From assembly GCA_001777665.1 (NCBI GenBank), contig MFEQ01000004.1:129331-193330 (forward strand): a stretch of 64,000 bases of DNA, written 5' to 3'. A program made the translations under genes and the position numbers. Under the pieces are notes generated by a model. The model had not been told where the DNA came from. It searched no databases and was given only the letters and a program-made list of their open reading frames with translations. Source of the stretch: Candidatus Doudnabacteria bacterium RIFCSPHIGHO2_02_FULL_42_25. Its GTDB lineage: Bacteria > Patescibacteriota > Doudnabacteria > UBA920 > O2-02-FULL-48-8. Shown here piece by piece: positions 11,129-24,655 of this stretch; position 1 is the first letter of the stretch; each line of letters opens with the position of its first letter.

Positions 11129-12118
11129 TTATTTACTTATTGAATAAAGTCTATTATTTGATTTGTCGACGAAGTAAACCGTGTTCCCTACCAAGAGCAT
11201 GATCTTAGTCTCAATCCTCTTACCAGGGTCGAAATAGATCTCGCTAGTATTAGTAGTCAGATCAATTTTTTTAAACAACCCACTGACATTAGCATAAATT
11301 AACTTTCCACTGCTATCTGCAACGAGTTGATCTAATGAAGTATTTAAATTCAAATTAGTTATTTGTTTTTTTGTCAGATCATAAAGGTAAATAGAAGTAT
11401 CCGTGGAGTATAAAAATTTATCAGCTGCAATCCATTTCGCGGATATATTTTTGCCCTGATCGACTAAGGTCGTTATCTGCCCAGTTTCCAAATTTACTGA
11501 ATAAATTTTGTTCGTGTCCCCCACAATATTTGACCTATAGATTAAAGCGGTCTTGCCGTCTGGATCGGGTTTTATAACCAAATCAGGCCAGAACACTGGA
11601 GTGATAGTTTTAAATCCCGACCCGTCAGCGTTGGCCATAGCCAATGAACTGGATTTATCTGTAGCTTCCCAAATATAAATAATTCTTTTGTTGTCTGGAA
11701 GCCATGATAAATATCGAATATTTTTTGGTAAATTGATATAAACCTTAAGCTTGCTATCGTAGTAGCTTTTTTGAATTTCCAGGTCTCCTGAAATCGTGAT
11801 AAAATCCGAACCTTCATTCGGCCACAAAACGGTACGCAAACTCTTTCCTGGTAAAATAGGAATTGAGGCTTCAGAGAGACCGGTCGATTTGACTTCAAAC
11901 AAATGACCATCTGAATTAAAGTACCAGATGACGTTATTCGCTCTGTCTGTTACTGGCGAAATTACTTCCTCTTCAGAAATTTGCTTAATTTGAAGCACCG
12001 GTACTATTTTTTCAACTTCCTTCTCTCGTTGTTTTTTTGTCGCATAATAAAGCACACCTCCAGCAACGAAAATTAACAAAATAATAATTGCGATTAAAAT
12101 AAAAAATCGTTTTCTCAT
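11129..12118 (-). CDS. Membrane-anchored TolB-like beta-propeller (PD40 repeat) protein; last gene of the secretion locus
   Basis: N-terminal TM segment (FFILIAIIILLIFVAGGVLYY). Repeated ADGSG/DPDGK motifs typical of PD40 propeller blades. Start set at MRKRFF to avoid overlap with the upstream gene. Confidence 0.5.
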   Translation of the reverse strand: MRKRFFILIAIIILLIFVAGGVLYYATKKQREKEVEKIVPVLQIKQISEEEVISPVTDRANNVIWYFNSDGHLFEVKSTGLSEASIPILPGKSLRTVLWPNEGSDFITISGDLEIQKSYYDSKLKVYINLPKNIRYLSWLPDNKRIIYIWEATDKSSSLAMANADGSGFKTITPVFWPDLVIKPDPDGKTALIYRSNIVGDTNKIYSVNLETGQITTLVDQGKNISAKWIAADKFLYSTDTSIYLYDLTKKQITNLNLNTSLDQLVADSSGKLIYANVSGLFKKIDLTTNTSEIYFDPGKRIETKIMLLVGNTVYFVDKSNNRLYSISK

Positions 12119-12119
12119 A

Positions 12120-21807: not shown

Positions 21808-23741
21808 TATGGTGATTGTGGAAATCTATACCCAAAATTCCATACATGATCTGGTCCAACCGTAAACGGATGGCTGCGATCCGTAGTTTCGATAGTACCT
21901 GGTGGCCAGGAACTAATATCAAGTGTTACGCGATAATCACCAGCAGCAAAATTTGTAAATGAATAATTACCTTGGGCATCACTAACAGCTGTTGTATACG
22001 ATATTCCGGCAGGTGTTTCTAGATATACTTTATTCCCCACTGTAGCAACATCACCCGCATCAAATACACCATTCAAGTTGTTATCTGAAAAGACCTTACC
22101 TGTTAATGACCAGGGGCCTGGCTGAAGCTGCGGACTTCCCCCGCCTCCTCCACCACCTGGTGGAACTGTTGGTACACCTGTAGGCACGGGCACATTTGAA
22201 GCAGCTTGCGCGTTAGGTTTATCACATTTCCCAATTACAGATTTAATCTCTTTAATATAATTAACGATGTCCATGGTAAGGCGAGTGATGTCGTCAATTC
22301 CATCGTATGGTCCATATTGGCCATCTAGCTCAAGATCCTTATCTTTAACCAAAGACATATTGATTGCAGCTAGATAGTCATCATGTCTTCCCAAAGCAAT
22401 CTCCATATTATCAAAGTAGGGGTTGTTAAAATCCTGAACGATTCCGAGCAAATTATCTAAAGATCCGTAAGCTTGTTGTACTCTTCTGGCCCAAGCTTGA
22501 GTATCAGCTTCGTTTATAAAATTATCTACAGTGACTTGGTCTCTGTGTGCTATTGCATAATCAACAAAGGCTTGCATGTCTTTCGCCGCTTTATCAATAG
22601 CCTGACAAAGGGGGGTAAAGTATGGCGAGGTCCCTACAGTAGAAGATGTATTACAACCACCCGGTTGTATAGGATTGCCGCCATGATAACAGACATCGCT
22701 TATTCCATTTAATAAACCGTCATTATTTCCATCACGTCCATCCGGAATACCGTCTAGATCTAAATCGATTTCAGAAAAATTAATATTTCCCGTGGAGGTG
22801 TTATACCCTATCTCACTATACTCATCTATAACTTCAGTACCGTCGGAATCGAGTTGCAGTCTTTTGAAAACAAAATTCCCTAATGCGTTACCGATAATGG
22901 TATAAGGATTGCTCATGTCTAAATTAACGTTAAACAATCCTTGGAGGGCATTATCTAGGTTGGATTTAATATAACCAGATGGGTCTTTAATAATGTTCAA
23001 AGCTTTATCCAGTCCAGCTGATCCAGTTGCTGTTATTGTTACAATCTCCCGACTGGATTTCAATCCTTGTCCTGCATCAATTTCTTGACTTGCTGCTGCT
23101 TGGGATTGAGACAAAGCTGCCCCAATCTGGCTGTCTAATTCTATCTCGGCAAATACTTCCGGATTAGAGAAGTAGGCTTGAGCAACTACAAAATATTCCC
23201 TATCTGACATTCCTTGAGGAGGATTATAAATCAATTGCGGATCTATTCCACCTCTTTTGATGTGATACTTTTTTTGGGCATCACTTATTTTTTTCAAAGC
23301 ATCTTTTTTTGCTTGAAGGTTTTGTTCGCGCGTATCACTATTGGCTTGCCCCGTAAAATCATATGAGTAAAGAGTAGAGGCTGCATTAAATGCTTCTCTT
23401 AAGTCTGGATCACCTATCTTGTTCGCAATGTATTGATTTAAATAATTACTTTCCAGAAGTCGTGCATAGTATAGATAATTTCTAATTTTATATTTATCGA
23501 GAACCTTATCGACAAATCTCGTAATAAACTCATTTGCATAATTGGAAGCTATTCTTAATACCGCGGCTTTCCCGATATCTTTGGCGATATCATATGGATT
23601 AGCAATTTCAGTTCCAAAGCTAAAAGTAATATCGCCAAATCCTAGAAATGCCTTAGCGGGTTCAGGTTTAACCAGAAAACCACTGGTTACACCTACCAGC
23701 AAAATAATTGCTATAGTTTTTTTAATGAAAAAACTTTTCAT
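21807..23741 (-). CDS. Secreted protein with Gly7 linker and C-terminal SdrD-B/Cna-B-like beta-sandwich domain
   Basis: Signal peptide MKSFFIKKTIAIILLVGV. PPGGGGGGGSP at about 22139-22161. C-terminal GDYRVTLD prealbumin-like motif. Confidence 0.5.
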   Translation of the reverse strand: MKSFFIKKTIAIILLVGVTSGFLVKPEPAKAFLGFGDITFSFGTEIANPYDIAKDIGKAAVLRIASNYANEFITRFVDKVLDKYKIRNYLYYARLLESNYLNQYIANKIGDPDLREAFNAASTLYSYDFTGQANSDTREQNLQAKKDALKKISDAQKKYHIKRGGIDPQLIYNPPQGMSDREYFVVAQAYFSNPEVFAEIELDSQIGAALSQSQAAASQEIDAGQGLKSSREIVTITATGSAGLDKALNIIKDPSGYIKSNLDNALQGLFNVNLDMSNPYTIIGNALGNFVFKRLQLDSDGTEVIDEYSEIGYNTSTGNINFSEIDLDLDGIPDGRDGNNDGLLNGISDVCYHGGNPIQPGGCNTSSTVGTSPYFTPLCQAIDKAAKDMQAFVDYAIAHRDQVTVDNFINEADTQAWARRVQQAYGSLDNLLGIVQDFNNPYFDNMEIALGRHDDYLAAINMSLVKDKDLELDGQYGPYDGIDDITRLTMDIVNYIKEIKSVIGKCDKPNAQAASNVPVPTGVPTVPPGGGGGGGSPQLQPGPWSLTGKVFSDNNLNGVFDAGDVATVGNKVYLETPAGISYTTAVSDAQGNYSFTNFAAGDYRVTLDISSWPPGTIETTDRSHPFTVGPDHVWNFGYRFPQSP

Positions 23742-24655
23742 TCTCCGAATTGTTTACTTAGTAATTGTTTTTCTAAACTCATTTTTTGCTGAACCGCCAA
23801 AAATGCCTGTGCTTTGTCATACCATTGATTAATGTTGTTTGGTGATGGAGTTCCAATCACATCTGCGAGTAGCTGATAAAAAGCGATATTATATTTATGA
23901 AAGTTAACCATCAGTTCTGGTACAGCAACCGTTTTAAGTTCAACTGAAAGTTTTTTCGCTTTTATTTGAATCATACTAACATCCGAGCCATACCCGTCCT
24001 GGAGTATCGCAGTAATTTCTGCGATTTCAGTTTGTGAAAAATATCGATTTGTTTTAGTTCGTAACTCTTCAAAATACTCCATGTAGACATCTTCCGACTG
24101 TATGTCATAGAGGATGGTCAATTCGTCATCAGCCACCAATGGGAGATTGACCTTACTTATATCAGAAGATTCGGCTACGAGTTTTTTTATATCTGAGTCG
24201 AAAACCAAGCTCTCGCCAATTATATTTTCATCTGACGCACTCTCTTCGAAACTCATTCGGCCCGGCTGGCTCGGATCGATTCCTGCTGCAACCAACTCGC
24301 CATCATTTAATTCATCACCTGCGGTTCGAAAGTTTAAAGGATCTGTCTTATAGTAATATTCTTGAGAATTATTTAACTTATCAGCATCAGGGTCGGCTTC
24401 AGGTCGACACTCGTCAAAATCACAAATGCTCTGACCAAAATATTTCTCATACCACCAGCCTGGAATTCCTGGGTCAGTTGTTGTTTGCGTTCCACTAATT
24501 TTTGAAGTTTTAAAAAATTTATCGTAAATCAACAGTCCTGAACCCAAAACAAAAACCATGACCAGAATGACCATGATTAAAGGACGAAGTTTACTTCTTA
24601 CTTTTGCTATCTTTCCAGGCACTTTGATTTGGTTTTTTTGTTTATTTCTGAACAT
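23738..24655 (-). CDS. Bitopic membrane protein (VirB8-like topology), first gene of the secretion locus
   Basis: Start set at MFRNKQ. The longer ORF begins with a non-ATG codon inside a GC-rich palindromic element. One TM segment (IMVILVMVFVLGSGLLIY). Confidence 0.45.
   Translation of the reverse strand: MFRNKQKNQIKVPGKIAKVRSKLRPLIMVILVMVFVLGSGLLIYDKFFKTSKISGTQTTTDPGIPGWWYEKYFGQSICDFDECRPEADPDADKLNNSQEYYYKTDPLNFRTAGDELNDGELVAAGIDPSQPGRMSFEESASDENIIGESLVFDSDIKKLVAESSDISKVNLPLVADDELTILYDIQSEDVYMEYFEELRTKTNRYFSQTEIAEITAILQDGYGSDVSMIQIKAKKLSVELKTVAVPELMVNFHKYNIAFYQLLADVIGTPSPNNINQWYDKAQAFLAVQQKMSLEKQLLSKQFGE

What the first reader, a model, noticed from the sequence alone, without database searches (positions are those of the whole stretch)
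11129..24655. 13.5-kb VirB4/VirB6-type type IV secretion-like locus with secreted poly-Gly and Cna-B-like proteins
Nine co-directional minus-strand genes have 0-4-nt gaps or overlaps. In order they are: a bitopic VirB8-topology protein; a secreted 644-aa protein with a Gly7 linker and a C-terminal SdrD-B/Cna-B-like domain; a 950-aa VirB6/TrbL-like polytopic protein with a secreted Thr/Cys-rich N-domain and a 430-aa cytoplasmic tail; a Pro-rich 436-aa protein; a small 2-TM VirB3/PrgI-like protein; a 230-aa unknown; a VirB4/TrbE ATPase (Walker A AKSGSGKS); a membrane protein with a Gly8 linker and a Cys-rich C-domain; and a membrane-anchored TolB-like beta-propeller. There is no relaxase, VirD4 coupling protein or VirB11. 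This suggests a non-conjugative secretion or competence-like machine of the kind reported as important for the epibiotic lifestyle of Saccharibacteria. Most components are unannotatable by motif alone.
Basis: partly seen in the sequence, partly recalled or inferred. Interest (0 to 1): 0.6.

Follow-up and report, generated by a model that had tools for sequence, protein, structure and literature searches.

The report
Patescibacterial type IV secretion locus (Doudnabacteria)
This is a real, chromosomally fixed type IV secretion gene cluster of the kind already described across Patescibacteria (here in a Candidatus Doudnabacteria genome), so it is a typical member of a known system whose function is still unknown.

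Summary
The 609-aa ATPase passes the curated VirB4 (CD1110) model. The 143-aa protein passes Pfam PrgI/VirB3. The 950-aa protein belongs to a family in which some members hit TrbL/VirB6.

Gene order is conserved with VirB4 in 80 Patescibacteria genomes, at one chromosomal site between ksgA and recG. No relaxase, coupling protein or VirB11 lies in the 64 kb.

Corrections:
- The organism is Candidatus Doudnabacteria, not Saccharibacteria.
- There are eleven co-directional genes, not nine.
- The "230-aa unknown" is the TrsD-like, split-off N-terminal part of VirB4.
- The "VirB8-topology" protein has calcium-binding TSP3-type repeats in its family and no VirB8 evidence.

Additions:
- The gene after virB4 plus the beta-propeller gene form a conserved pair. 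In most other lineages that slot holds a VirB2-like pilin.
- The C-terminal domain of that gene belongs to a large family with no Pfam model. Over half of the members examined are fused to T4SS pilins.
- Its His/Asp/Glu motif looks like a zinc cell-wall hydrolase. HMM, profile and fold searches did not confirm this.

Verdict: new member of a known kind, moderate interest.

The parts
24790..24818 (-). Promoter-like site upstream of the first gene (TAGACA-17-TGnTATAAT, 11 of 12 matches).
   Evidence: This is a consensus match only.
23738..24655 (-). Bitopic membrane protein of 305 aa from the ATG (the ORF extends to a TTG at 24691). It has an N-terminal TM helix, an acidic region aligned to the family's D-x-D-x-DG repeats, and a helical C-terminal domain with a conserved Y...VP...H motif. 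It is a conserved accessory component, not shown to be VirB8.
   Evidence: The family was found in 22 of 80 loci at the same upstream position. 13 of 22 members hit Pfam TSP3_bac, best 4.9e-17; the window protein itself hits nothing. A PDB profile search gave only weak hits to Ca-binding proteins.
21807..23741 (-). Secreted 644-aa protein. It has a signal peptide, a ~520-aa N-terminal domain of unknown fold, a Gly7 linker, and a C-terminal SdrD-B/Cna-B-type Ig-like domain. It is a lineage-restricted surface or adhesin-like accessory.
   Evidence: SdrD_B at 1.7e-11, 44.7 bits against a cut-off of 29.7. PDB UafA/SdrD B domains at ~0.004. Homologues were found in only 6 of 80 loci.
18955..21807 (-). 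Extended VirB6/TrbL-like polytopic membrane protein of 950 aa. It has a signal peptide, a ~200-aa Thr-rich external domain, a conserved multi-TM core (aa ~225-482), and a ~465-aa variable charged tail.
   Evidence: The TM core is conserved in 58 of 80 loci. 3 of 43 family members hit Pfam TrbL (1.8e-6) and 1 hits TrbL_4. The window protein itself gives only weak hits: CD3337/EF1877 at 0.0033 and SseC at 4.7e-4. Invariant residues are W271, R275, F282 and N318-F319-S320.
17640..18950 (-). Conserved soluble 436-aa protein with no TM. It has a helical N-domain (aa 11-215, NWLxDY motif), a disordered Pro-rich linker (217-340), and a small helical C-domain (341-436, SPLF..YL..EEFE motif). It is an orphan T4SS-associated component. 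In ABY1-type loci the two domains are separate adjacent genes.
   Evidence: The family is in 44-45 of 80 loci, directly after VirB6. There is no Pfam hit in any of 44 members. The AF2 model has mean pLDDT 67.7 with domains at 70-92. Foldseek against PDB gave nothing better than E = 0.85, generic TPR-like hits. The PDB profile search gave nothing.
17479..17501 (-). Terminator-like hairpin with a T-run after the 436-aa gene.
   Evidence: This is a consensus match only.
16564..17313 (-). Inserted gene that is not part of the T4SS: a four-helix-bundle protein with a suffix domain and a low-complexity Asp/Asn/Lys/Arg insert.
   Evidence: TIGR04258 at 2.1e-7 and TIGR02436 at 0.004, both below cut-off. 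It is absent from the 80 related loci.
16130..16567 (-). Inserted gene that is not part of the T4SS: a PIN-domain protein (toxin-like), overlapping the previous gene by 4 nt.
   Evidence: PIN_3 at 3e-17 and TIGR00305 at 46.6 bits against a cut-off of 29.15. It is shared only with locus L006 at the same site.
16067..16095 (-). Promoter-like site upstream of prgI (TTGCCT-17-TGnTATAAT, 10 of 12 matches).
   Evidence: This is a consensus match only.
15541..15972 (-). PrgI/VirB3-like protein of 143 aa with 2 TM helices.
   Evidence: Pfam PrgI at 6.8e-10, 39.8 bits against a cut-off of 27. It is present in 75 of 80 loci directly upstream of the TrsD-like gene and VirB4. TM helices are at 23-41 and 45-63.
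14848..15540 (-). TrsD-like protein of 230 aa. It is the split-off equivalent of the N-terminal domain of full-length VirB4.
   Evidence: It matches positions 98-234 of the VirB4_plasma model (5e-10) and positions 11-120 of the CD1110 model. The 609-aa ATPase starts at CD1110 model position 181. TrsD NF041427 scores 0.0014, below cut-off. It is a separate ORF in 77 of 80 loci.
13017..14846 (-). VirB4-family ATPase of 609 aa with Walker A AKSGSGKS and Walker B VIDEAWW. It is the motor of the system.
   Evidence: NF045971 at 6.7e-109, 365.2 bits against a cut-off of 325. P-loop_TraG at 1.4e-25. It is 100% identical to a Ca. Doudnabacteria MAG protein and 73-88% identical to the other 119 of the best 120 listed relatives. 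It is 56-84% identical across Patescibacteria lineages.
12120..13013 (-). Bitopic 297-aa protein. It has a charged cytoplasmic N-terminus, one TM helix (83-101), a Cys-bracketed loop, a Gly8 linker, and a Cys-rich external C-domain. The C-domain carries invariant H239-x2-G-x-K-x-D246 and E286-x2-H289-W-D291. It occupies the slot held by VirB2-like pilins in other lineages. It is a putative metal-dependent (LAS-like) hydrolase, unconfirmed.
   Evidence: The C-domain family has 2010 representatives at E <= 1e-3. Invariant residues across 145 sequences are. 76 of 145 members carry Pfam T4SS_pilin and 15 carry TrbC. The slot equivalence is shown. No Pfam, PDB or Foldseek support was found for any known fold.
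11129..12118 (-). Membrane-anchored TolB-like beta-propeller of 329 aa from the ATG at 12118. It is the conserved partner gene of the preceding gene.
   Evidence: TIGR02800 TolB at 2.2e-6, partial and far below cut-off. PDB TolB at 0.0027. The family is in 39 of 80 loci. 25 of 32 full-length copies are directly preceded by a pilin-like gene or a gene of the 297-aa type.

Best explanation
[quoted passage not shown] This is the clade nested within the monoderm MPF-FATA class.

Proposed mechanism:
- The motor is a VirB4 ATPase whose N-terminal domain is encoded separately (TrsD-like).
- By analogy with solved T4SSs, the motor docks on the membrane through the 2-TM PrgI/VirB3 protein and an extended VirB6/TrbL-like polytopic protein that forms the translocon.
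- A conserved soluble helical protein (436 aa) sits between virB6 and prgI and is probably a cytoplasmic accessory.
- Outside the membrane there is a Ca-binding-repeat bitopic protein, a secreted Ig-domain protein, a single-TM protein with a putative hydrolase head in the pilin slot, and a membrane-anchored beta-propeller. These would build or service the wall-crossing, host-facing part.
- No relaxase or coupling protein accompanies it, and it sits at a fixed housekeeping site. It is therefore most likely not a conjugation machine. It more likely serves cell-to-cell interaction with a host, by export of proteins or pilus-like surface structures or by uptake of host material.

What is shown: component identities for VirB4, PrgI and TrsD-like, the VirB6 family, the synteny, and the absences within the window. 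What is inferred: the assembly, the topology of the VirB6 tail, the hydrolase activity, and the biological role.
For: - VirB4 is above the curated cut-off and PrgI is above the Pfam cut-off.
- The TrsD-like protein and the ATPase cover complementary parts of full-length VirB4 models.
- VirB6 family members hit TrbL.
- Family counts in 80 loci from Doudnabacteria, Falkowbacteria, Magasanikbacteria, Moranbacteria, Paceibacterota, Kaiserbacteria and others: VirB4 80, TrsD-like 77, PrgI 75, VirB6 58, the 436-aa family 44-45, propeller 39, the 317-aa family 22.
- The chromosomal site is conserved: ksgA upstream in 18 loci, recG downstream on the opposite strand in 35. The window has both.
- VirB4 is 56-84% identical across these lineages.
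- No relaxase, T4CP, VirB11 or integrase was found among the window ORFs scanned.
- Literature: 2,425 patescibacterial VirB4s form one clade inside MPF-FATA, with TrsD, PrgI and VirB6 nearby, relaxases nearly absent, and ksgA or recG as common neighbours (PMC12102498). The T4SS genes are essential for epibiotic growth of Southlakia epibionticum (PMC10633639).
- The core order VirB6, PrgI, VirB4, wall enzyme, bitopic protein resembles my recollection of pCF10 prgH-I-J-K-L. That rests on my own knowledge and was not tested.
Against: - No substrate, effector or pilus is identified.
- No VirB2 pilin is detectable in the window and no VirB8-fold protein was identified.
- The window VirB6 protein itself does not reach any TrbL threshold.
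- A T4CP or relaxase could lie elsewhere in the genome. The paper found VirD4 homologues in 2,918 genomes, mostly far from virB4.
- Many DNA-metabolism genes surround the locus: ComFC-like, RecQ, RecG, UvrD, RecO and DinB-like. This fits a DNA-related role as well as any other.
- Doudnabacteria have no cultured representative, so the epibiotic role is extrapolated from Saccharibacteria.
Confidence: 0.8

Rival explanations
1. It is a DNA-uptake or DNA-exchange machine, like ComB of Helicobacter or the archaeal Ced system. The VirB4 motor would import DNA across the envelope, functionally linked to the neighbouring recombination and competence genes.
For: - The window holds a ComFC-like protein (Pribosyltran + DZR_2, 1178-1888), RecQ (2145-3929), RecG (8311-10392), UvrD, RecO and a DinB-like polymerase.
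- recG is next to the locus in 35 of 80 genomes.
- PMC12102498 notes comF, recG and radA near T4SS genes in class ABY1 and suggests coordination.
- The ATPase gives partial hits to the CedB and CedD DNA-import models, 1.5e-11 and 1.6e-5, both far below cut-off.
- PMC11665869 raises nucleotide acquisition as a candidate role.
Against: - According to the FEMS review (PMC12857230), which cites Wang et al. 2023, deleting comEC in S. epibionticum abolishes competence but not viability, while the T4SS is essential. The essential role is therefore not ComEC-dependent transformation.
- The CedB and CedD hits cover only the generic P-loop region.
- ksgA, tRNA synthetases and other housekeeping genes are equally close neighbours.
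Confidence: 0.15
2. It is the transfer module of an integrated conjugative element or a decaying remnant of one.
For: - The best-scoring models are named for conjugative elements: CD1110, Mbov_0397 ICE and TraC.
- A PIN gene and a four-helix-bundle gene are inserted in the locus.
Against: - No relaxase, T4CP or integrase was found in 64 kb.
- The flanks are housekeeping genes.
- The locus is at the same chromosomal site in many classes, and VirB4 stays 56-84% identical across them.
- All ORFs are intact with tight or overlapping junctions.
Confidence: 0.03

Closest known systems
Patescibacteria-clade T4SS (Quinonero-Coronel et al. 2025, PMC12102498; S. epibionticum SEML1_0006-0019, Wang et al. 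2023, PMC10633639)
   Same: - The core is TrsD-like, PrgI/VirB3, VirB4 and an extended VirB6.
- It is chromosomal and lacks a relaxase.
- It has ksgA and recG as neighbours.
- VirB4 shows very high conservation.
- A wall-active or surface gene follows virB4.
   Different: - No recognisable VirB2 pilin or pilin array is present. S. epibionticum has six pilin genes.
- There is one VirB6 gene, not two.
- No NTF2-like protein and no lysozyme-like or PEGA proteins are present.
- Instead there is a TSP3-family bitopic protein, an SdrD-B protein, a single-TM protein with an unannotated His/Asp/Glu domain, and a beta-propeller.
- The 436-aa protein fuses two domains that are separate genes in ABY1-type loci.
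Monoderm conjugative T4SS of the MPF-FATA class (pCF10 Prg, pIP501 Tra, pGO1 Trs, CTn2 CD1110 family)
   Same: - The VirB4 matches the CD1110 family above cut-off.
- A PrgI family protein is present.
- A TrsD-like protein is present, as in pGO1.
- No outer-membrane core components are present.
- The core gene order is similar (from my own knowledge of pCF10, not tested).
   Different: - It has no relaxase, no coupling protein and no PrgB-type adhesin.
- It is not on a mobile element.
- A propeller protein sits where a VirB8-like protein would be.
- The hydrolase is not SLT/CHAP-type.
LAS-type zinc peptidases (Peptidase M15 / VanY / Hedgehog N-domain), as a model for the 297-aa protein's C-domain
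   Same: - It has an invariant H-x6-D motif and a later E-x2-H-x-D motif. The latter is H-W-H in the L056 homologue.
- It is preceded by a VTGGTE strand. From memory, this resembles the M15 'SxHxxGxAxD ... ExxH/HxH' signature.
- Positional homologues in L001 and L002 have textbook versions of the motif and weak Pfam M15_3/M15_4 hits.
   Different: - No HMM, hhalign or Foldseek support was found.
- The family has no Pfam model.
- Some members carry an additional, separate M15-like or SLT domain.

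Membership tests
Type IV secretion system (VirB4-based), Patescibacteria / MPF-FATA type | VirB4-family ATPase | tested here: met
   NF045971 scores 365.2 bits against a cut-off of 325, E = 6.7e-109. TraC, VirB4_CagE and TrbE models also hit, and Walker A and B motifs are present.
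Type IV secretion system (VirB4-based), Patescibacteria / MPF-FATA type | VirB3/PrgI-like small membrane protein next to VirB4 | tested here: met
   Pfam PrgI scores 39.8 bits against a cut-off of 27. The protein has 2 TM helices. It lies upstream of the TrsD-like gene and VirB4 in 75 of 80 loci.
Type IV secretion system (VirB4-based), Patescibacteria / MPF-FATA type | VirB6/TrbL-like polytopic protein | tested here: inconclusive
   The window protein has only sub-threshold hits (CD3337/EF1877 at 0.0033). Its family, present in 58 loci, includes 3 members that hit TrbL (1.8e-6) and 1 that hits TrbL_4. Membership therefore rests on transitivity and synteny.
Type IV secretion system (VirB4-based), Patescibacteria / MPF-FATA type | TrsD-like protein (homologue of the VirB4 N-terminal domain) | tested here: inconclusive
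   It matches the N-terminal positions of two VirB4 models (5e-10 and 1.5e-5). The TrsD model scores 0.0014, and all are far below curated cut-offs. Coverage is complementary to the ATPase. It is conserved in 77 of 80 loci.
Type IV secretion system (VirB4-based), Patescibacteria / MPF-FATA type | VirB8-like (NTF2-fold) bitopic protein | tested here: not met
   No VirB8, PrgL or TraM hit was found for any window protein. The 317-aa family shows TSP3 repeats plus a region that looks helical in the alignment. No structure was predicted for it, so a cryptic NTF2 fold is not excluded.
Type IV secretion system (VirB4-based), Patescibacteria / MPF-FATA type | VirB2-like pilin | tested here: not met
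   A pilin HMM built from 81 pilin-type members finds nothing in the window's six-frame ORFs even at E <= 10. Pfam finds no pilin domain in the 297-aa protein or in the 69-aa 2-TM ORF. hhalign finds no relation between the 297-aa N-terminus and pilins. There is positional equivalence only.
Type IV secretion system (VirB4-based), Patescibacteria / MPF-FATA type | Cell-wall hydrolase (VirB1 analogue) near virB4 | tested here: inconclusive
   A motif-level resemblance to LAS peptidases is present in the gene after virB4. No statistical support was found. A separate LysM-M23 peptidase lies 14 kb away on the other strand.
Type IV secretion system (VirB4-based), Patescibacteria / MPF-FATA type | Neighbours conserved with VirB4 in related genomes | tested here: met
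   80 loci were examined; the counts are given in the best explanation.
Type IV secretion system (VirB4-based), Patescibacteria / MPF-FATA type | VirB4 falls inside the monophyletic Patescibacteria clade | not tested
   No tree was built. Nearly all named relatives are Patescibacteria MAGs, apart from a few labels that look like binning errors. Identities are 56-88%.
Conjugative element (plasmid or ICE transfer region) | Relaxase | tested here: not met
   None was found among the window ORFs scanned with Pfam or NCBIfam. The rest of the genome cannot be tested here.
Conjugative element (plasmid or ICE transfer region) | Type IV coupling protein (VirD4/TcpA) | tested here: not met
   No such protein is in the window (same calls). 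It could be encoded elsewhere in the genome.
Conjugative element (plasmid or ICE transfer region) | Integrase or mobile-element boundaries | tested here: not met
   The flanks are RecG, KsgA, UvrD and tRNA synthetases. The site is conserved across classes.
LAS / Peptidase M15 zinc hydrolases (for the 297-aa C-domain) | H-x(3-6)-D and HxH / ExxH metal-binding motifs | tested here: met
   H239, D246, E286, H289 and D291 are invariant in 145 sequences. The L056 homologue has H-W-H.
LAS / Peptidase M15 zinc hydrolases (for the 297-aa C-domain) | Significant sequence or profile match to an M15 or LAS family | tested here: not met
   No Pfam hit was found for the window type. Only E = 0.01-0.17 was found for the L001 and L002 positional homologues. 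PDB hmmsearch with 7- and 145-sequence profiles found nothing. hhalign probability was below 6%.
LAS / Peptidase M15 zinc hydrolases (for the 297-aa C-domain) | LAS fold | tested here: inconclusive

The most novel reading that the evidence does not exclude
The gene slot after virB4 plus the adjacent beta-propeller gene may form a conserved two-gene module. In it, a membrane- or pilin-anchored head domain is presented outside the cell. That head is a large, unannotated family with an invariant His/Asp/Glu metal-hydrolase-like constellation. In over half of the examined members the head is fused to the C-terminus of a VirB2-type pilin. This would imply an enzyme-bearing T4SS pilus or stalk that Patescibacteria use to open a cell wall, either the host's or their own, with the C-terminal head swapped between lineages.
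Probability: 0.2. Interest if true: 0.7.

Novelty: new member of a known kind. Interest (0 to 1): 0.35.

Why it matters
The patescibacterial T4SS is essential in the one species tested, and reviews call its role completely unknown. This Doudnabacteria example does not change that picture.

It does sharpen the parts list:
- It shows which unannotated genes travel with VirB4 across classes: the 436-aa helical protein, the TSP3-family bitopic protein, and the anchor-plus-propeller pair.
- It points to a large unannotated extracellular domain family tied to T4SS pilins that could be tested as a wall hydrolase.

These are concrete targets for structure prediction and for genetics in the tractable Saccharibacteria.

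Tried and rejected
- **VirB8 identity for the 317-aa protein.** No VirB8, PrgL or TraM hit was found. The family shows TSP3 repeats and a region that looks helical in the alignment. I rejected it as a supported claim. Its fold was not predicted.
- **M15/LAS identity for the 297-aa C-domain.** I tried single-sequence and profile PDB searches, Pfam on members and on isolated domains, AF2 plus Foldseek against PDB and BFVD, and hhalign against positional homologues. All were negative or sub-threshold. It is kept only as a motif-based hypothesis.
- **VirB2 pilin in the window.** A pilin HMM, Pfam on the 69-aa 2-TM ORF (25022-25231), and hhalign of the 297-aa N-terminus were all negative.
- **Fold of the 436-aa protein.** The AF2 model gave only generic helical-repeat matches. 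The PDB profile search and Pfam were negative.
- **Non-coding RNA in the ORF-poor gap 10392-11129.** No Rfam hit was found at the gathering threshold or at E <= 1, and no similarity to the 80 loci. It more likely holds two small Shine-Dalgarno-preceded ORFs.
- **ICE or plasmid origin.** Rejected on context.

Full report
**What is there.** Between 11129 and 24691 the minus strand carries eleven co-directional ORFs, not nine.

In order of transcription they are:
- a 317-aa ORF (305 aa from the ATG at 24655)
- 644 aa
- 950 aa
- 436 aa
- 143 aa
- 230 aa
- 609 aa
- 297 aa
- a 364-aa ORF (329 aa from the ATG at 12118)

Junctions are overlaps of 1-4 nt or gaps of 0-4 nt, with one exception. That exception is the 1,667-bp stretch between the 436-aa and 143-aa genes, which contains the two extra genes. 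A terminator-like hairpin follows the 436-aa gene. Promoter-like sites precede the first gene and the 143-aa gene, so two transcription units are plausible. These are consensus matches only.

**Whose genome.** The 609-aa protein is 100% identical to a protein of a Candidatus Doudnabacteria MAG (RIFCSPLOWO2_02_FULL_42). The other 119 of the best 120 listed relatives are 73-88% identical, and the named ones are mostly Doudnabacteria or 'Patescibacteria group'. The window is therefore CPR/Patescibacteria, but not Saccharibacteria. The flanks are housekeeping genes: RecG and three tRNA genes on one side; KsgA, UvrD, RecO, IleRS and ArgRS on the other.

**Core components.**
- The 609-aa protein passes the curated NCBIfam model for VirB4-like conjugal transfer ATPases of the CD1110 family (365 bits, cut-off 325, E = 6.7e-109). 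It also matches TraC, VirB4_CagE and TrbE models.
- The 143-aa protein passes Pfam PrgI (39.8 bits, cut-off 27) and has two TM helices.
- The 230-aa 'unknown' matches the N-terminal positions of two full-length VirB4 models (98-234 of 894; 11-120 of 752). The ATPase itself starts at position 181 of the 752-position model. The pair is thus a split VirB4, which is what the literature calls TrsD (PMC12102498).
- The 950-aa protein gives only weak hits itself. Its multi-TM core is conserved in 58 of 80 related loci, and three of 43 family members hit Pfam TrbL/VirB6 at up to 1.8e-6.

**Synteny.** A scan of one genome per species returned 80 loci with a close VirB4 relative (56-84% identity). They came from Doudnabacteria, Falkowbacteria, Magasanikbacteria, Moranbacteria, Paceibacterota, Kaiserbacteria, Taylorbacteria and others.

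By tblastn and iterated HMM searches on their ORFs, the family counts were:

| Family | Loci (of 80) |
|---|---|
| TrsD-like | 77 |
| PrgI | 75 |
| VirB6 family | 58 |
| 436-aa family | 44-45 |
| propeller family | 39 |
| 317-aa family | 22 |
| 297-aa family | 7 |
| 644-aa family | 6 |

All lie on the VirB4 strand and in the same order. Many loci are cut off at 10 kb upstream, which lowers the count for the 317-aa family.

ksgA lies upstream in 18 loci, and recG lies downstream on the opposite strand in 35. The window has both. The locus therefore sits at an old, fixed chromosomal site, which argues for vertical inheritance and against a mobile element.

**Absences.** No relaxase, coupling protein, VirB11 or integrase was found. 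Of the 43 window ORFs of 150 aa or more, 38 were scanned; five of 165-189 aa were not. The rest of the genome could not be examined.

**Relation to what is published.** This is the system described by Quinonero-Coronel et al. 2025 (PMC12102498). They report the following:
- VirB4 is present in 2,417 of 3,035 Patescibacteria genomes.
- 2,425 of these proteins form one clade nested in the monoderm MPF-FATA class.
- TrsD, PrgI and VirB6 lie nearby.
- VirB8 is rarely detectable.
- Relaxases are almost absent.
- ksgA, or in class ABY1 recG, radA and comF, are frequent neighbours.

Wang et al. 2023 (PMC10633639) showed by Tn-seq that most genes of the homologous cluster of Southlakia epibionticum are essential for epibiotic growth; SEML1_0012 scored non-essential. 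Reviews state that its role is completely unknown (PMC11665869; PMC12857230). The finding is thus a new member of a known kind.

**Accessory genes.**
It belongs to a family in which 13 of 22 members carry bacterial TSP3 calcium-binding repeats. The repeats are followed by a region that looks helical in the alignment, with a conserved Y...VP...H pattern. Nothing links it to VirB8.
- *644-aa protein.* It is secreted and ends in a genuine SdrD-B-type Ig domain, but it is restricted to a few lineages.
- *436-aa protein.* Its family is widespread and has no TM helix. The AF2 model has an all-helical N-domain, a disordered proline-rich linker of about 120 residues, and a small helical C-domain. No Pfam, PDB-sequence or Foldseek match was found. 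In ABY1-type loci the two domains are separate adjacent genes, for example L015 6244-7401 and 7418-8782.
- *Last gene.* It is a membrane-anchored beta-propeller with weak TolB similarity.

**The gene after virB4.** The 297-aa protein has a charged N-terminus, one TM helix, a Gly8 linker and a Cys-rich C-domain. A profile of that C-domain finds 2010 cluster representatives at E <= 1e-3. In 145 of them, H239, G242, D246, E286, H289 and D291 are invariant.

No Pfam model covers the domain. However, 76 of the 145 proteins carry a Pfam T4SS_pilin domain at their N-terminus and 15 hit TrbC/VirB2. Thirty-one have the window's type of N-terminus, which hhalign does not relate to pilins. One member is a fungal secreted protein with two copies of the domain. 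Others add an SLT or an M15-like domain.

In the 80 loci, 25 of 32 full-length propeller genes are directly preceded by another gene of this kind. In 21 cases it is a pilin-like gene, usually with a long C-terminal extension. In 4 cases it is a gene of the 297-aa type. In L056 the preceding gene is pilin plus the very same C-domain. The 297-aa gene therefore occupies the pilin slot of a conserved 'anchor plus propeller' pair, even though no pilin is detectable in this window.

The invariant residues, and the canonical 'SAHxxxEAxD ... HxH' versions in the positional homologues of L001 and L002, look like LAS/M15 zinc peptidases. I could not confirm this by any statistical test:
- Pfam gave only E = 0.01-0.17 for L001 and L002.
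- PDB profile searches found nothing.
- hhalign probabilities were below 6%.
- Foldseek with a moderate-confidence model found nothing in PDB or BFVD.

The hydrolase idea therefore remains a hypothesis.

**How it most likely works.** The following are shown:
- a VirB4 motor split in two
- a VirB3-like partner
- a VirB6-family membrane protein
- tight co-orientation of the genes
- phylum-wide synteny at a housekeeping site
- no DNA-processing genes in the window

The rest is inferred from established knowledge of T4SSs. TrsD/VirB4 would dock on PrgI and VirB6 at the cytoplasmic face and power movement of a substrate or of surface subunits through a VirB6-based channel. The external proteins would build or service the wall-spanning, host-facing part. 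These are the TSP3-family protein, the Ig-domain protein, the anchored head domain and the propeller. The 436-aa protein would be a cytoplasmic accessory.

The role is probably host interaction rather than conjugation. I put about 0.8 on this overall reading, about 0.15 on a DNA-uptake or exchange role, and about 0.03 on an ICE remnant. The DNA-uptake reading is favoured by the many recombination and competence neighbours. It is disfavoured by the comEC result in S. epibionticum as reported.

**The two extra genes.** The four-helix-bundle gene and the PIN gene are an insertion, not T4SS parts. They are absent from nearly all related loci. The same intergenic site upstream of prgI holds other small cargo in relatives:
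- a four-helix-bundle gene in L001
- a PIN gene plus a four-helix-bundle gene in L006
- two genes in L004 that look to me like GxxExxY-type genes (not scanned)
- two unrelated genes in L002

The site behaves as an insertion hot spot.

**Verdict.** Novelty: new member of a known kind. Interest is moderate to low (0.35). The most novel reading still open is the pilin- or membrane-anchored head-domain plus propeller module described above.

Noticed in passing
window 16130-17313 (-); L001:7713-8144, L006:4239-5324, L004:6935-8679, L002:6628-8400: The intergenic site just upstream of prgI looks like an insertion hot spot. The window has a four-helix-bundle (suffix-domain) gene plus a PIN gene. L001 has a four-helix-bundle gene. 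L006 has a PIN gene plus a four-helix-bundle gene. L004 has two genes that look to me like GxxExxY-type genes (read by eye, not scanned). L002 has two unrelated genes.
   Followed up: partly
window 12120-12560 (-) and proteins P0122-P0276: The C-terminal domain of the 297-aa protein defines a large family of 2010 representatives with no Pfam model. H, D, E, H and D residues are invariant. The domain is mostly fused to T4SS pilins. It also occurs as tandem copies in a secreted protein of the fungus Ceratobasidium (KAG9125394.1).
   Followed up: partly
window 10393-11128 (+): This GC-richer 736-bp stretch lies between recG and the propeller gene. It has a near-consensus promoter-like site (10393-10421) and a 16-bp-stem terminator (11079-11115). 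Between them are two small ORFs preceded by Shine-Dalgarno sequences (10470-10658, 62 aa; 10748-10942, 64 aa). There is no Rfam hit. Pfam gave no hit for the 62-aa ORF; the 64-aa ORF was not scanned. There is no similarity in the 80 related loci.
   Followed up: partly
window 50364-54718 (+): This looks like a cyo-type quinol oxidase operon in a CPR genome. It has subunit II with a COX_ARM motif, subunit I (COX1, 5.3e-137), a 189-aa ORF, a 115-aa 4-TM ORF, and a UbiA-family heme O synthase-like gene. This is unusual, given that Patescibacteria are generally described as lacking a respiratory chain.
   Followed up: no
window 32351-35725 (-): The 1124-aa class I tRNA synthetase (IleRS-like) has a histidine phosphatase (His_Phos_1, 3.7e-35) domain at residues 493-649, inside the synthetase.
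   Followed up: no
window 1178-3929, 8311-10392, 26305-28347, 31818-32354, 44622-46139: DNA-metabolism genes are dense around the T4SS: a ComFC-like protein (Pribosyltran + double zinc ribbon), RecQ, RecG, UvrD, RecO and a DinB/ImpB-type polymerase. This matches the comF/recG association reported for class ABY1.
   Followed up: partly
window 24816-25395 (-): A run of four small ORFs lies between ksgA and the first T4SS gene. They are a 55-aa Cys4 zinc-ribbon-like ORF, a 69-aa 2-TM ORF, a 36-aa 1-TM ORF and a 44-aa 1-TM ORF. None has a homologue in the related loci. Only the 69-aa ORF was scanned with Pfam, and it shows no pilin signal.
   Followed up: partly
L015:6244-8782 and other ABY1-type loci versus window 17640-18950: The 436-aa protein is a fusion. 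Its N-domain family and its Pro-rich plus C-domain family are two adjacent genes in Falkowbacteria-type loci.
   Followed up: partly
window 13017-14846 (-) and loci L001-L080: VirB4 is unusually conserved for a T4SS component. It is 73-88% identical to the other 119 of the best 120 listed relatives, and 56-84% identical across different candidate phyla. Its neighbours are only about 25-45% identical by typical tblastn values.
   Followed up: partly
loci L015, L017, L019, L023-L025 and others: Many contigs carrying this patescibacterial locus are labelled 'uncultured Gammaproteobacteria', Planctomycetota or Verrucomicrobiae in their records. These are probably taxonomic mislabels of MAGs.
   Followed up: no
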